Position numbers and translations under genes: made by a program. From the NCBI GenBank assembly GCA_964016885.1, contig OZ024751.1, positions 12,648,001-12,712,000 of the forward strand: 64,000 nt of DNA. Direction: 5' to 3'. Numbering within the stretch: position 1 is the stretch's first letter; each line of letters begins with the position of its first letter. Under the pieces are notes generated by a model that was not told where the DNA came from, did not search any database, and worked only from the letters and a program-made list of their open reading frames with translations. Shown here piece after piece: positions 46,964 through 64,000 of the stretch. Source of the stretch: Eledone cirrhosa (lineage: Eukaryota).

Positions 46964-47311
46964 TTAGGTTTGTTGGTTAACCACTGGATAAAATTGGTCA
47001 TTCCGTATATAAAATTATGGAGAGTACTCAACGTAATGCAGCTCACCCGTCTTCGTTGTGTAGTTGGTGGTGCGAGTACGGAGTTAATTATAAAATAAGA
47101 TAACAGGAGGCTGGACTTGTGTAAATTCTTGAAAGGTTTATTATACTATGATCATTTCAATGACCGGGTTCCGTATGAATCCGGTGACATCATCAGGTAT
47201 TCGAAATATAACAAAGGAATATAACAGATAAAATCCATGGTCGATCGTCTTCTTGGCTATGATTTTCGGCCCCATGGATTTTATCTGTTATATTCCTTTG
47301 TTATATTTCGA

Positions 47312-47369
47312 ATACCTGATGATATCACCGGATTCATACTGAACCCGGTCATTGAAATGATCATAGTAT
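47312..47369 (+). ncRNA. Type I hammerhead (mirror copy 47143-47200 on minus) in palindrome 47090-47422
   Basis: atac-CTGATGA-tatcaccggattc..gaacccggtcatt-GAAA-tgatca-TA-gtat, then AATAAA. Confidence 0.75.
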
Positions 47370-55769: not shown

Positions 55770-56165
55770 TATATATATATGTATATATGTATGTATATAT
55801 ATATATGTATATATGTATGTATATATATATATGTATATATGTATGTATATATATATATGTATATATGTATGTATATATATATATGTATATATGTATGTAT
55901 ATATATGTATGTATGTATATATATATACATACATATGTATATATGTATGTATATATATATATGTATATATGTAGATAATTTAATATATCAACTAACATAG
56001 GCGCACAGATGCACGTCCATGCCAGCAAATACACAGGTTATGTCATAGTACCTAGGTGGTTCAATGCAGGAGGGTGCAGAACAATAATATAAAAGACGTA
56101 AGATAAGAAAATATTTTTTAAAAAAATTTTTTTTTTAAATCTTTTACTTACTTACTTAAATTTTC

Positions 56166-56247
56166 ACTCCAACTAATTAGTTTCTGCAATGGGATAAAGA
56201 CAGTTACGTAATCCAACTGTCGAGAATTCATTGCGTCATCAGGGAGT
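56166..56247 (-). ncRNA. Type I hammerhead, extended stem II (copy 1)
   Basis: Reverse complement: actcc-CTGATGA-c-gcaatg..gacagtt..aactgtc..cattgc-a-GAAA-ctaattag-TT-ggagt. Confidence 0.85.
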
Positions 56248-56721
56248 CTATTCTCAGCTGAGTCTCCAGGCAATGCGCGGACACTGGCGGCTCATATAAA
56301 AATAATAATAATTCGGTAGAAAGAACAGCTGGCGAGGACTGGATTCCATGTACTGAAATTCTCACTGCTTCTAGTCAAATGGCCGATTCTAAAGAATCAA
56401 TCACGTGACACAGAGGCTAGTTAGAAGGAATGGGATGGTAAGATGACTGACGCCTACTAACACCCCAAAAAAAATTTAGAAGTGGTTTTGGCAGGTTTGC
56501 TCGACAAATCAGTGATTTGGAGATAAATATAGATAATTTAATATATCAACTAACATAGGCGCACAGATGCACGTCCATGCCAGCAAATACACAGGTTATG
56601 TCATAGTACCTAGGTGGTTCAATGCAGGAGGGTGCAGAACAATAATATAAAAGACGTAAGATAAGAAAATATTTTTTTTAAAAATTTTTTTTAAAACTTT
56701 TACTTACTTACTTAAATTTTC

Positions 56722-56803
56722 ACTCCAACTAATTAGTTTCTGCAATGGGATAAAGACAGTTACGTAATCCAACTGTCGAGAATTCATTGCGTCATCAGGG
56801 AGT
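56722..56803 (-). ncRNA. Type I hammerhead, extended stem II (copy 2)
   Basis: Identical to 56166-56247. Confidence 0.85.
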
Positions 56804-57211
56804 CTATTCTCAGCTGAGTCTCCAGGCAATGCGCGGACACTGGCGGCTCATATAAAAATAATAATAATTCGGTAGAAAGAACAGCTGGCGAGGACTGGAT
56901 TCCATGTACTGAAATTCTCACTGCTTCTAGTCAAATGGCCGATTCTAAAGAATCAATCACGTGACACAGAGGCTAGTTAGAAGGAATGGGATGGTAAGAT
57001 GACTGACGCCTACTAACACCCCAAAAAAAATTTAGAAGTGGTTTTGGCAGGTTTGCTCGACAAATCAGTGATTTGGAGATAAATATAGATAATTTAATAT
57101 ATCAACTAACATAGGCGCACAGATGCACGTCCATGCCAGCAAATACACAGGTTATGTCATAGTACCTAGGTGGTTCAATGCAGGAGGGTGCAGAACAATA
57201 ATATAAAAGAC

Positions 57212-59424: not shown

Positions 59425-59550
59425 GTTTTGGGAAGATGGGACAGGAAGTCGATATCATCCCGGATGAAAATGGGTATGTGAATACATAGTGGTTTCAAAA
59501 TAATGTCAACAAAATTGCTTAGACGGTGAGTGGGGCATGTTGGACCAGTA
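59425..59550 (-). pseudogene. Inverted Penelope-like reverse transcriptase fragment
   Basis: [39 protein letters not shown] resembles the PLE RT segment after the RPI motif. Confidence 0.8.
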
Positions 59551-59909
59551 CATGTGAATCCATACACGCCGGTCAATATATGAAAACAAAAACTGGAAAA
59601 ATATTCCCAAATGCAAATATGAACTGCAAAAGCAGAAATCTAATTTACTGCATTAAATGCCCGAATTGTGAAGAACTATATGTCGGTCAAACTGGCAATG
59701 CACTATCGGAACGTGCACGGGTACACCGTCAACAAATCAGAGACCCAAATGTCCGTCAGATACCCCTAAGCGGCCACCTGGCAACATGTGGTCAGGGAAT
59801 ATTTATAATATTCCCATTCTACAAATTACACAGCCCAAGTGAAATCAAGAGAAAAATCAAAGAAAAGATTTGTATTGATAAATTCAAACCCAAGCTAAAT
59901 GAACAATAA
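59550..59909 (+). pseudogene. Penelope-like (Neptune-type) C-terminal GIY-YIG endonuclease fragment
   Basis: [29 protein letters not shown]...H...H...R.IKEK..I.KF.P.LN. Confidence 0.88.
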
Positions 59910-60289
59910 TAACGCCTAGGGGTATTACTTCTACTACCACTATGACCACGACCACTAACAACAACAACAACAACAACAACAACAATAATAATAATAAAAG
60001 TGATGTTGATGGTGATGATTAATAGAAAATGCTATTTTCAACATTTCAAAAAGCAAAACAATTGATACGTTGGGTATGACTATTGGACGTTAGCATGCTC
60101 AACCAGCCGTGACGCTTAAACCAATCAGCTGTAGTAATTCAGTGAAACTACACACTGATTGGTCGAAATACAGTTTACAGGGCTTTGCATTCTGGAGCCA
60201 CTTTTCTCTGTATAAAATGTATAAAAGGTAGTAAATTTACCCATCTCATTACAGTTGAAAATTGCAAACTCGACTGTCACCACATATCA

Positions 60290-60328
60290 TGAACCTGAAG
60301 ATTGCGAAAGCATGAAAGTACTTGTTCA
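60290..60328 (+). ncRNA. Minimal type I hammerhead in the 3' region of the Neptune-type element
   Basis: tgaac-CTGAAGA-t-tgc-gaaa-gca-t-GAAA-gtac-TT-gttca. Confidence 0.85.
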
Positions 60329-61041
60329 ATTAACACTTAGAATTTAATATTCTATCATACTATTTCATTATAATACCATATTATATATATTTTAAAGGAT
60401 TGTAAATAAAACGAGTAAACACACACACATACTTATACTCGCGCATATAAACCCGTATGCATGCCCACGCATGACACTGAGTAAGTAACAAAAGGGGGAA
60501 GGGGGGGGAGAAGAAAAAAGGAACAAAAACATAAAACCGAAATATCAAAAACACGGATATAAAGACACTTACATATACGCATAATATATACATACGCACA
60601 CGAACAAACACCTGTACACACACACATACATACATACACGCATATATATATATACATATACATACAGGCACGCGCGCGCACATACGTAGTTACTCATATA
60701 CATATATAAAAAGTATACACACATTAAGGCGTTCAGCCATATTGAAATGTGGATAAATAAGTACAAATATAAAATTGTTAGATAGGCTGCGCAAAAATAA
60801 AATAAAAATAAAAATGAAAAATATATCTGGATTGAAAAACACAAAAGACAAGTATAATCAGTTAGTGTAGGAAAAAGGGAAGTAAAAGAAGGGGAAGTAA
60901 AAAATAGAAAATAGGAAGTGGATCGGAGAATAAGGGGGGGGGTTAAATAAAAATAAATAAAAGTGAAAATAAATGAAATTATTGACAAGGAAAAGAATGA
61001 AAGTAAGTCAGAAAGGGTAATTAATAGAGAATAATAAGAGT

Positions 61042-61415
61042 TTATGGAGGATAAGTATCTGAACGTGTGTTAAGTTTATATGAGCTGGAAAGCAGGTGTG
61101 ATTTCATGTGTGGCCAACTGGTAAAAATTTCCGTCTTTGTGTTCAGGCAGGTCTTCGGTGATTTAAGATTTTGCAATATCCAAAATTTTTCATTTATGCA
61201 GAGCGTGCATTTTCTTGATCCTCTAGCATATTTTTTAGATTGGTTCAAAATTGACCAATCTAGTTTATATTGGATACCTTGGTCTTTCAAATCCCAGATT
61301 CTGCTAGCCAGAGCTGTTGTAAATCTTTTTTCTGGATGTCGAAAGGATGCGACATGTGAGTAATAACGCGTTTTGAATCTGTCTTGCGTCATACCCACAT
61401 ATCGTTCACTGGTGA
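61042..61415 (-). pseudogene. Second PLE GIY-YIG fragment (probably Hydra-type, with C-terminal CxxC)
   Basis: YVGMTQDRFKTRYYSHVASFRH...LASRIWDLK...WSIL...KCTLCINEKFWI...LN.KTEI. Confidence 0.82.
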
Positions 61416-61778
61416 CTAAAAACCGGTTTGTCTGTGTGTTTACATACAGAATAGCTGGACACTCACAGTAAAGTGACCAGTGAAAGACTTGGTACATCTA
61501 CATATGTATACGTGTGTGTATTCATATGCATACTAGTATTTCAGTATACATATGTGGATGTACATTTTTAACTTAATTGTTTAAGTGTCAGTCATACAAA
61601 AGTGAGTTACAAACGAAACGAAATTTAATTTCGTTTCGTTATTTGTTTTTATCGTCTCCGTTGAACCGGTACGCACTCACGCTCTATGCAAATTGGTCTG
61701 CTCACTACTAATTTTCATAGAAAAAGCATATGACGATATGTGCTTTTACGATTCTCCAGAAAGGTCGGAAGAAAGGTA

Positions 61779-61823
61779 AATATTGCTGATGAGTTGTAAC
61801 AACAACGAAACTAGTTCAATATT
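61779..61823 (+). ncRNA. Type I hammerhead (copy 1)
   Basis: aatattg-CTGATGA-gttg-taacaa-caac-GAAA-ctag-TT-caatatt; all stems pair. Confidence 0.9.
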
Positions 61824-62243
61824 CCTTGTCTGGCTTTCTGGAGAATAGAGGAAAGGTGTTTCCTCAAAAACCAGTATCACTCTAAAAACCGGTTTGTCTG
61901 TGTGTTTACATACAGAATAGCTGGACACTCACAGTAAAGTGACCAGTGAAAGACTTGGTACATCTACATATGTATACGTGTGTGTATTCATATGCATACT
62001 CGTATTTCAGTATACATATGTGGATGTACATTTTTAACTTAATTGTTTAAGCGTCAGTCATACAAAAGTGAGTTACAAACGAAACGAAATTTAATTTCGT
62101 TTCGTTATTTGTTTTTATCGTCTCCGTTGAACCGGTACGCACTCACGCTCTATGCAAATTGGTCTGCCCACTACTAATTTTTATAGAAAAGCATATAACG
62201 ATATGTGCTTTTACGATTCTCCAGAAAGGTCGGAAGAAAGGTA

Positions 62244-62288
62244 AATATTGCTGATGAGTTGTAACAACAACGAAACTAGTTCAATATT
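62244..62288 (+). ncRNA. Type I hammerhead (copy 2)
   Basis: Identical to 61779-61823. Confidence 0.9.
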
Positions 62289-62580
62289 CCTTGTCTGGCT
62301 TTCTGGAGAATAGAGGAAAGGTGTTTCCTCAAAAACCAGTATGACTCTAAAAACCGGTTTGTCTGTGTGTTTACATACAGAATAGCTGGACACTCACAGT
62401 AAAGTGACCAGTGAAAGACTTGGTACATCTACATATGTATACGTGTGTGTATTCATATGCATACTAGTATTTCAGTATACATATGTGGATGTACATTTTT
62501 AACTTAATTGTTTAAGCGTCAGTCATACAAAAGTGAGTTACAAACGAAACGAAATTTAATTTCGTTTCGTTATTTGTTTT

Positions 62581-62674
62581 GATATGTATATATATATGTG
62601 TATATATATATGTATATATATATATATTTGTATATATATATATGTATATATATATATATTTGTATATATATATG

Positions 62675-62705
<31 letters not shown>

Positions 62706-62731
62706 GTATATATATATATGTATATATATAC

Positions 62732-62802
<71 letters not shown>

Positions 62803-62840
62803 CATATATATACATATATATATATACATATATATACATA

Positions 62841-62878
<38 letters not shown>

Positions 62879-63006
62879 CATATATATATATGTATATATA
62901 TGTATGTATATATATATATATATATGTATATATATGTATGTATATATATATGTATATATGTGTATATATATATGTATATATATGTATGCATATATGTATA
63001 TATATG

Positions 63007-63039
<33 letters not shown>

Positions 63040-63716
63040 GTATATGTATATATGTGTATATATATGTATATATATATGCATATGTATATATGTGTATATA
63101 TATGTATATGTATATATATATATGTATATATATATATATGTATATATATATATGTGTATATATATATGTGTATATATATATGTGTATATATATATGTGTA
63201 TATATATATGTGTATATATGTATGTGTATATATATATATATGTATATGTATATATATATATATGTATATGTACATATATATATATACACATATATATATA
63301 TACATATATATATACATATATAAATATATATATATATACATATATATACATATATATATATATACACATATATATATATACATATATATATACATATATA
63401 AATATATATGTATATATATATATATATGTATATATATGTATATATATATATATTTATATATATATATATATGTATATATATGTATATATATATATATTTA
63501 TATATATGTATATATATATGTATATATATATATGTATATATATATATGTATATATATATATGTGTATATATATATATGTATATATATATATATGTATATA
63601 TATATGTATATATATATATATGTATATATATATATGTATATATGTATATATATATGTATATATATATATGTATATATGTATATATATATGTATATATATA
63701 TGTATATGTATATATG

Positions 63717-63747
<31 letters not shown>

Positions 63748-63830
63748 GTATATATGTATATATATATGTATATATATATGTATATATATATGTATATATA
63801 TATATGTATATATATATGTATATATATATG

Positions 63831-63862
<32 letters not shown>

Positions 63863-63885
63863 TATGTATATGTATATATATATAT

Positions 63886-63938
<53 letters not shown>

Positions 63939-64000
63939 GTATATATATGTATATATATATATGTATATATATGTATATATATATATGTATATATATATGT
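62581..64000. repeat. (TA)/(TATG) microsatellite to window end
   Basis: Direct reading. Confidence 0.96.

What the first reader, a model, noticed from the sequence alone, without database searches (positions are those of the whole stretch)
61416..62580. 465-bp hammerhead multimer (retrozyme-like) joined in opposite orientation to a GIY-YIG fragment
Seen: 2.5 tandem units, each full unit with a well-formed hammerhead; units differ by a few substitutions; the array abuts a minus-strand PLE endonuclease remnant at 61415, with a short inverted match (TTCACTGGT at 61405 and ACCAGTGAA near 61476). Established: tandem type I hammerhead repeats in other metazoans (non-LTR retrozymes) yield unit-length linear and circular RNAs. 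Inference: a ~465-nt circular RNA copied by rolling-circle reverse transcription, caught still attached to its parent PLE.
Basis: partly seen in the sequence, partly recalled or inferred. Interest (0 to 1): 0.75.

Follow-up and report, generated by a model that had tools for sequence, protein, structure and literature searches.

The report
Retrozyme array fused to Hydra retrotransposon
This is one of thousands of copies of a 466-base non-coding repeat with a predicted self-cutting RNA motif, likely written into the genome from an edited, probably circular RNA by Penelope-type enzymes, and here it is fused head-to-head to a piece of an unrelated Penelope-type jumping gene that is not its parent.

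Summary
Observation confirmed: 2.5 units (466, 465, 237 nt; 61416-62583) with two canonical type I hammerheads. It is no assembly duplication: 5,251 exact hammerhead-core matches occur genome-wide. Sister insertions sit in (TA)n and end at two fixed sites about 70 nt apart; 64 of 65 two-armed inverted sites with both ends at these sites have one of each, the Penelope 'tail' signature. Rare changes shared by all copies of an array are A>G-biased (20 versus 4), and arms cross the predicted cleavage site without scars: an edited, probably circular RNA template. The GIY-YIG piece is a Hydra-clade Penelope element with its own terminal repeat and hammerhead and no homology to the unit, so 'attached to its parent' fails; head-to-head joints with two other Penelope families also occur. 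This scan had already noted the two-arm and A>G signatures for retrozymes of this genome. No RNA data; cleavage and circles untested.

The parts
61416..62583 (+). Retrozyme array, one arm: units of 466 and 465 nt plus 237 nt; GC 36%; no ORF over 50 aa inside (ATG starts, 40-aa floor)
61773..61826 (+). Canonical type I hammerhead, copy 1 (6-bp stem I with UAA bulge, 4-bp stem II with UAACAA loop, palindromic stem III ACUAGU); predicted cut after 61816
   Evidence: cleavage not tested
62238..62291 (+). Hammerhead, copy 2; predicted cut after 62281, so the predicted monomer is 61817-62281 (465 nt)
62509..62583 (+). 'Tail' between the family's two 3' ends (unit positions about 163-168 and 237); this arm ends at the long site, directly against (TA)n
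61685..61692 (+). Octamer ATGCAAAT (also at 62151-62158), kept in the sister family; possible promoter element (name recalled, role inferred)
   Evidence: lost in one spreading variant
61472..61487 (+). Unit positions 57-72, 14 of 16 complementary to the last 16 nt of the Hydra piece
61402..61417 (-). 5' break of the Hydra piece (family position 2297-2312); 2-nt microhomology with the array, 5 nt with a 2-nt slip
60419..61417 (-). Fragment of a Hydra-clade Penelope-like element: C-terminal part of the GIY-YIG endonuclease (61045-61413) and part of the 3' UTR; cut at both ends, its own terminal repeat missing
59425..60419 (+). Neptune-like Penelope element remnant (short inverted 5' piece, GIY-YIG end, 3' UTR with minimal hammerhead at 60295); its last ~29 nt are missing where it is fused to the Hydra UTR
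62584..64000 (.). (TA)n-type microsatellite, the target site

Best explanation
The array is a one-armed insertion of an abundant non-coding hammerhead repeat (a non-LTR retrozyme), likely reverse-transcribed for 2.5 laps from an A-to-I-edited, probably circular 466-nt RNA by a Penelope-type enzyme that would cut (TA)n and start copying at a fixed internal site, and its 5' end is fused to a fragment of an unrelated Hydra-clade element. Shown: tandem units, dispersal, (TA)n targets, two fixed 3' ends with one of each per two-armed insertion, near-identity of units within an insertion, A>G bias, seamless crossing of the cleavage site, lack of homology to the Hydra terminal repeat. Inferred: transcripts self-cleave (probably as double hammerheads, given the 2-bp palindromic stem III) and are ligated; a PLE dimer primes on both strands of the cut, one arm from each start site, and the two copies are joined by microhomology. 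Here the second arm is replaced by Hydra sequence. The joint most likely formed during the retrozyme insertion and was guided by the 14-of-16 match, which can tether Hydra and retrozyme strands 56 nt from the joint (about 0.6). Whether the Hydra strand was DNA already lying beside the (TA)n tract or an RNA copied in the same event is open; a separate deletion removed the Hydra 3' end that could have told.
For: 5,251 exact 26-nt core matches, control 0; 37,555 for a looser motif that includes the sister family. First 67 sites: 49 two-armed, 43 with one short and one long end, 0 short/short, 0 long/long, 6 with one atypical end; 18 one-armed, 11 short and 7 long (6 of the 43 rest on a tiny arm recognised by a 7-10-nt motif). 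Further 40 loci: 21 short/long, 1 short/short, 3 with an atypical end, 13 one-armed, 2 not classifiable. The same rule holds for coding PLEs here: 5 of 5 Hydra and 7 of 7 Neptune-like inverted copies that show the marker on both arms. Units within a site differ by a median of 2 (same arm, 23 sites) and 1.25 (opposite arms, 10 sites) against 19 between 10 sites picked by position; one locus has 18 of 18 identical units over both arms. Array-wide rare changes: A>G 20, T>C 4 of 46 distinct (p 0.0015), 12 versus 2 in the second sample alone; single-copy changes 35 versus 39 of 347. Only 1 of 110 arm 5' ends lies within 395-410, around the cut at 401/402; 217 of 218 crossings have no indel there. 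Duplicated flanks of up to 9-14 nt at 6 of 7 hand-picked non-(TA)n sites. Hydra break at the only position of 2,158 coding positions with a 14/16 match to the unit.
Against: No RNA evidence; cleavage and circles untested, the triplet is GUU (weaker than GUC, recalled), and 8 of 9 predicted Xenopus retrozyme dimers did not cleave in vitro (10.64898/2026.07.22.740005). Four of five marker variants of homogeneous arrays recur in other or longer arrays, so an uncut linear multimer template is not excluded. The enzyme is not identified: no sequence link between the unit and four PLE terminal regions. The 14/16 match was singled out after the fact, and the neighbouring joint at 60419 shows that plain deletions with about 1 nt of homology happen at this locus. 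One short/short case exists, though its arms are 945 nt apart. Samples are not random: 38 sites were chosen by likeness to this unit, 27 by position on one contig, 42 by variant motifs.
Confidence: 0.72

Rival explanations
1. Mixed-template insertion: one Penelope complex copied Hydra RNA on one arm and the retrozyme RNA on the other; the retrozyme cDNA paired with Hydra RNA over the 14/16 match, and the Hydra-copying enzyme jumped there to the retrozyme cDNA 3' end. This would make Hydra a mobiliser of the retrozyme, not its parent.
For: Break exactly at the end of the unique best match; head-to-head geometry and 2-nt overlap like same-family arm joints, most of which overlap by 0-10 nt; ages compatible, private changes 11 of 898 versus 8 of 1,168, p 0.25; Hydra tail 78 nt versus 69-74 nt, same (TA)n target.
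Against: 3 of 31 one-armed sites have such joints, each with a different PLE family; the Hydra 3' end that should be the short type is deleted; no second Hydra joint among the best 40 of 2,335 candidates.
Confidence: 0.3
2. Neighbours by shared target, fused later by an ordinary deletion: Hydra copy, (TA)n, two-armed retrozyme; a deletion removed the Hydra 5' part and the minus arm, and the 14/16 match is chance or merely set one deletion end.
For: That precursor layout exists for the same Hydra family, 199 nt from an array (L166); the locus has had another deletion; PLE families crowd the same (TA)n tracts.
Against: Needs either a 1-in-2,158-type coincidence or a lost arm that began within 2 nt of unit position 57, while arm starts are spread over the whole unit.
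Confidence: 0.35
3. The template is an uncut linear multimer transcribed from another array, or arrays grow by unequal crossover after a monomer inserts; no circle is involved.
For: Marker variants recur in long arrays that could be sources; GUU triplet and short stem III may cut slowly; in the anole PLE, uncut RNA was the main substrate (PMC11167929).
Against: The same A>G change at every lap and on both arms is hard to get from site-by-site editing of a multimer unless inherited from its source; a 1-nt deletion fills 7 of 7 consecutive units at one site and no other run of consecutive units; two public assemblies hold the unit as one closed loop, library type not on record.
Confidence: 0.2
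4. One reading: the unit is the terminal repeat of the adjacent PLE, caught attached to its parent.
For: Adjacency; retrozymes derive from PLE terminal repeats in Xenopus (10.64898/2026.07.22.740005).
Against: The adjacent family has its own, unrelated terminal repeat; opposite orientation; no same-sense ORF directly upstream of a unit in 111 loci.
Confidence: 0.04
5. Assembly duplication.
For: Repeat-rich region; no read spans the locus in the data laid.
Against: Units differ at 7 places; the array ends at the family's fixed site; multimers are the rule.
Confidence: 0.02

Closest known systems
Metazoan non-LTR retrozymes (Cervera and de la Pena 2020, PMC7229834: passages and the Discussion read; Li, Clavereau and Pollet 2026, 10.64898/2026.07.22.740005: parts 1-3 of 5 read, supplements closed)
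   Same: Dispersed tandem non-coding units, GC under 50%, canonical type I hammerhead per unit, highly paired predicted monomer, duplicated flanks longer than 4 nt, co-existence with PLEs.
   Different: 466 nt is above the 170-400 nt of the 2020 paper, within the 51-972 nt of the preprint. Neither text as read describes two fixed 3' ends, two-armed inverted insertions or editing marks ('inverted' occurs 0 times in the main text of PMC7229834; supplements not seen). No homologous PLE terminal repeat was found here, unlike 24 of 57 Xenopus families.
Endonuclease-bearing PLE insertions with tail and inverted copy (PMC8557442: passages; PMC11167929: parts 1-2 of 4)
   Same: [quoted passage not shown]
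   Different: The element is non-coding and multimeric; its tail is 69-74 nt rather than 30-40; its hammerhead is canonical rather than minimal.
Hydra clade of PLEs (PMC8557442: passages), for the neighbouring fragment
   Same: RWK, DKT, CxCX5C linker, C-terminal GIY-YIG with CxxC and CxH, hammerhead-like fold in the terminal repeat, (TA)n targets.
   Different: About 3.6 kb between terminal repeats with a long 3' UTR (paper: generally under 3 kb); no tree was built.
Newt satellite 2 (recalled; double-hammerhead idea seen as a passage in PMC4209133)
   Same: Tandem hammerhead repeat with short palindromic stem III; an octamer in the unit (snRNA-type promoter recalled, the source paper not found).
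   Different: Different sequence and host group; promoter function untested and the octamer is lost in one spreading variant.

Membership tests
Non-LTR retrozyme | Canonical type I hammerhead in each tandem unit | tested here: met
   Rfam score below the gathering cut-off, covariation in stems I and II
Non-LTR retrozyme | Short, low-GC, non-coding tandem unit without LTR organisation | tested here: met
   GC 36%, no internal ORF over 50 aa
Non-LTR retrozyme | Dispersed multicopy family, dimers to long multimers | tested here: met
Non-LTR retrozyme | Highly self-paired monomer | tested here: met
   prediction only, z -8.7
Non-LTR retrozyme | Target duplications longer than 4 nt when visible | tested here: met
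   6 of 7 hand-picked sister sites; not readable at this locus
Non-LTR retrozyme | Self-cleavage | not testable with these tools
   needs in vitro transcription
Non-LTR retrozyme | Unit-length linear and circular RNA in cells | tested here: inconclusive
   closed-loop contigs of 495 and 496 nt in two runs whose library type is not on record
Terminal repeat (pLTR) of the adjacent PLE | Same sequence as that family's terminal repeat, same sense, downstream of the ORF | tested here: not met
PLE-type insertion | Two 3' ends (tail), tail at one end of inverted insertions, microsatellite target | tested here: met
PLE-type insertion | Recognition and copying by a PLE protein | not testable with these tools
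   inferred from the ends only
Hydra clade (neighbour) | RWK, DKT, CxCX5C, C-terminal EN, (TA)n target | tested here: met
   read in longer family copies, against PMC8557442
Hydra clade (neighbour) | Placement in an RT phylogeny | not tested
   no reference proteins at hand

The most novel reading that the evidence does not exclude
The locus is a fossil mixed-template insertion: a Hydra-clade Penelope complex copied its own RNA from one end of a DNA break and an edited retrozyme circle from the other, and joined them where the retrozyme cDNA could pair with Hydra RNA. That would name the enzyme that moves these retrozymes and show how the two arms of every inverted Penelope insertion find each other.
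Probability: 0.3. Interest if true: 0.75.

Novelty: new member of a known kind. Interest (0 to 1): 0.5.

Why it matters
Which enzyme writes animal retrozyme RNAs into DNA, and whether the template is a circle, is proposed but not shown in the papers read. The ends, arm pairing and A>G marks of this family point to Penelope-type copying of an edited RNA and define exact start sites that can be tested in vitro. This locus adds a rare joint between a retrozyme and a coding PLE that may record a template jump. It is not a new class of element, and the family-level signatures were noted before in this scan.

Tried and rejected
Public runs: no RNA holder listed; all four-run layouts were contigs, none spans the locus, so they say nothing on expression or on the joint. 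A joint-spanning DNA search found only this locus among the best 40 of 2,335 candidates. I first took the neighbour for a Naiad; domain order and motifs make it Hydra. Tests for a circle by asking whether a homogeneous array's marker variant has a longer source: four of five markers recur widely, one does not: inconclusive. L071 looked like a same-sense parent ORF but about 1 kb of other sequence lies between. L152, a joint with both outer ends intact, cannot test the short/long rule because all copies of its partner family that reach the end stop at one site. A profile of the retrozyme tail region and short-word BLAST found no link to four PLE terminal regions, so a start signal shared with Hydra was not confirmed for this family. 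Pfam gave no hit for the Hydra piece. Rfam microRNA hits are (TA)n artefacts. Literature searches listed no paper on retrozyme ends, editing marks or PLE-retrozyme chimeras; the library lacks most subscription papers and supplements were not read.

Full report
Observation. The array spans 61416-62583 on the plus strand: 466 + 465 + 237 nt, with 7 differences between the two full units. Each full unit holds a type I hammerhead that matches Rfam HH9 at 34.1 bits, below the curated cut-off of 52. Its build is the canonical metazoan one described in PMC4209133 (passages): 6-bp stem I, 4-bp stem II, 2-bp palindromic stem III. Over 18 distinct variants from this family and a colinear sister family (about 67% identical where BLAST aligns them; alignment) 6 of 15 pairs change on both sides, while the bulge, loop 2 and core are nearly fixed. 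The predicted monomer 61817-62281 folds far better than shuffles (z -8.7). The triplet is GUU here; some more diverged copies have GUC and the sister family GUA.

Family. The genome is 3.0 Gb. A 26-nt core motif matches 5,251 times, and a looser motif that includes the sister family 37,555 times, controls 0. I examined 67 distinct sites (38 by likeness to this unit, 27 by position on contig 1, 2 by a rare variant) and 40 more loci chosen from variant-motif lists (two of them look like one duplicated segment). Nearly all abut (TA)n. 3' ends fall at unit positions about 163-168 (short) or 235-239 (long). Of two-armed inverted sites with both ends at these positions, 64 have one short and one long end, 1 has two short ends (arms 945 nt apart), 0 have two long ends; 9 more have one atypical end; 31 are one-armed; 2 could not be classed. 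Six of the 64 rest on a tiny arm recognised by a short motif. A public contig set shows loose TA ends at the same three positions (X2; it may be the source of the assembly, so not independent). Coding PLEs of this genome behave alike: 5 of 5 Hydra and 7 of 7 Neptune-like inverted copies with the marker on both arms pair short with long, tails 78 and about 53 nt. In PMC11167929 (parts 1-2 read) the tail of an anole PLE is the stretch between two internal start sites of reverse transcription, and the protein cuts and extends both strands; PMC8557442 (passages) says the tail is often at one end only. The retrozyme therefore carries the footprint of PLE-type integration (inference).

Template. Units within one insertion are nearly identical, also across opposite arms, while sites picked by position differ by a median of 19; one site has 18 of 18 identical units. 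Rare changes shared by every copy in an array are A>G-biased on the hammerhead strand (20 A>G, 4 T>C of 46 distinct; 12 and 2 in the second sample alone), whereas single-copy changes are symmetric (35 and 39 of 347): the expected trace of A-to-I editing read as G by reverse transcriptase (established chemistry; editing itself not measured). Arm 5' ends do not pile up at the predicted cut (1 of 110 within 395-410) and 217 of 218 crossings have no indel, so cut linear monomers joined by jumps are unlikely. A circle or an uncut multimer remains; four of five marker tests could not exclude a longer source array, one could. Two public runs of unrecorded type hold the unit as a single closed-loop contig of unit length plus 30, which a circle or a uniform tandem would both give. 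The window's array comes from a rare variant (10 exact matches genome-wide, 2 of them here); its two full units share a 280 A>G change absent from the five closest sites compared, and it has 8 private changes in 1,168 nt.

The neighbour. [quoted passage not shown] Its terminal repeat has another hammerhead-like fold and no homology to the unit. Here it is cut on both sides: its last ~760 nt are gone where it meets a Neptune-like remnant that lacks its own last ~29 nt, so a deletion has acted at this locus. No PLE reading frame lay directly upstream of a unit in the same sense in 111 loci, 28 of which had some PLE protein match. Head-to-head joints occur at 3 of 31 one-armed sites, each with a different family: Hydra here, Neptune-like in L110 and L152. 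The same Hydra family also lies 199 nt from another array (L166). 'Parent' is therefore not supported.

The joint. The pieces overlap by 2 nt, like joints between same-family arms. The last 16 nt of the Hydra piece pair 14 of 16 with unit positions 57-72; of 2,158 coding positions of the Hydra element only this one reaches 14 of 16 against the unit, and the break is exactly there (3 more such positions lie in TG-rich UTR). Allowing a few bases of slack and the after-the-fact choice, I put chance at a few percent. Pairing between Hydra RNA and retrozyme cDNA, or between a Hydra DNA end and retrozyme RNA, would hold the two ends 56 nt apart and explain the position. Private changes are 11 of 898 for Hydra and 8 of 1,168 for the array (p 0.25), which does not separate one event from two. 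The telling feature, whether the Hydra arm ended at its short site, is deleted.

Verdict. A real, new member of the non-LTR retrozymes. The family-level evidence for PLE-type copying of an edited, probably circular RNA goes beyond what I read in PMC7229834 and 10.64898/2026.07.22.740005, which propose PLEs as mobilisers from co-occurrence, tandem layout and terminal-repeat similarity; supplements were not seen. Earlier notes of this scan report the two-arm and A>G signatures for retrozymes of this genome; I had the two-end result before that look-up and the A>G result. What is particular to this locus is the homology-placed joint to a Hydra element, which is suggestive but single. Interest 0.5.

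Noticed in passing
window 59425-60419 (+): Remnant of a young Neptune-like PLE with a minimal hammerhead at 60295; copies elsewhere have open RT-EN frames of 740-775 aa and a second upstream ORF.
   Followed up: partly
L089, L073, L080, L085, L087, L118, L128, L147: Sister retrozyme family (units about 422-490 nt), apparently more abundant, colinear with this unit, same loop and bulge, two homologous 3' ends.
   Followed up: partly
window 55970-57210: Tandem repeat of about two copies of a roughly 620-nt unit between (TA)n tracts, with no plain hammerhead core in the motif scan; another mobile repeat, not examined.
   Followed up: no
window 8213-8227, 17932, 20410, 27645, 28210, 28619, 31196, 39755, 44965, 47196-47316 and others: Many further hammerhead-core-like motifs, some in inverted pairs, probably ends of other PLE families in (TA)n tracts.
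   Followed up: no
window 61042-61497 (-): The joint creates a 151-aa frame from an ATG in the antisense of the unit into the endonuclease C-terminus; it lacks the first half of the GIY-YIG motif, probably incidental.
   Followed up: no
G000:C1:5738327-5752443; L120; L136-L137: Arrays of 20-30 near-identical units in one or two arms, implying many kilobases of continuous copying or later expansion.
   Followed up: partly
L120 variant (7 loci): A variant whose octamer is destroyed by three A>G changes still spread to several contigs.
   Followed up: partly
L152:3647-3770; L110:3250-3436: Two more head-to-head joints between this retrozyme and PLE pieces; L152 has both outer ends in (TA)n and a 7-of-8 microhomology.
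   Followed up: partly
window 485-3608 and 10783-15742: Long minisatellite arrays of 44-nt (71 copies) and 21-nt (236 copies) units.
   Followed up: no
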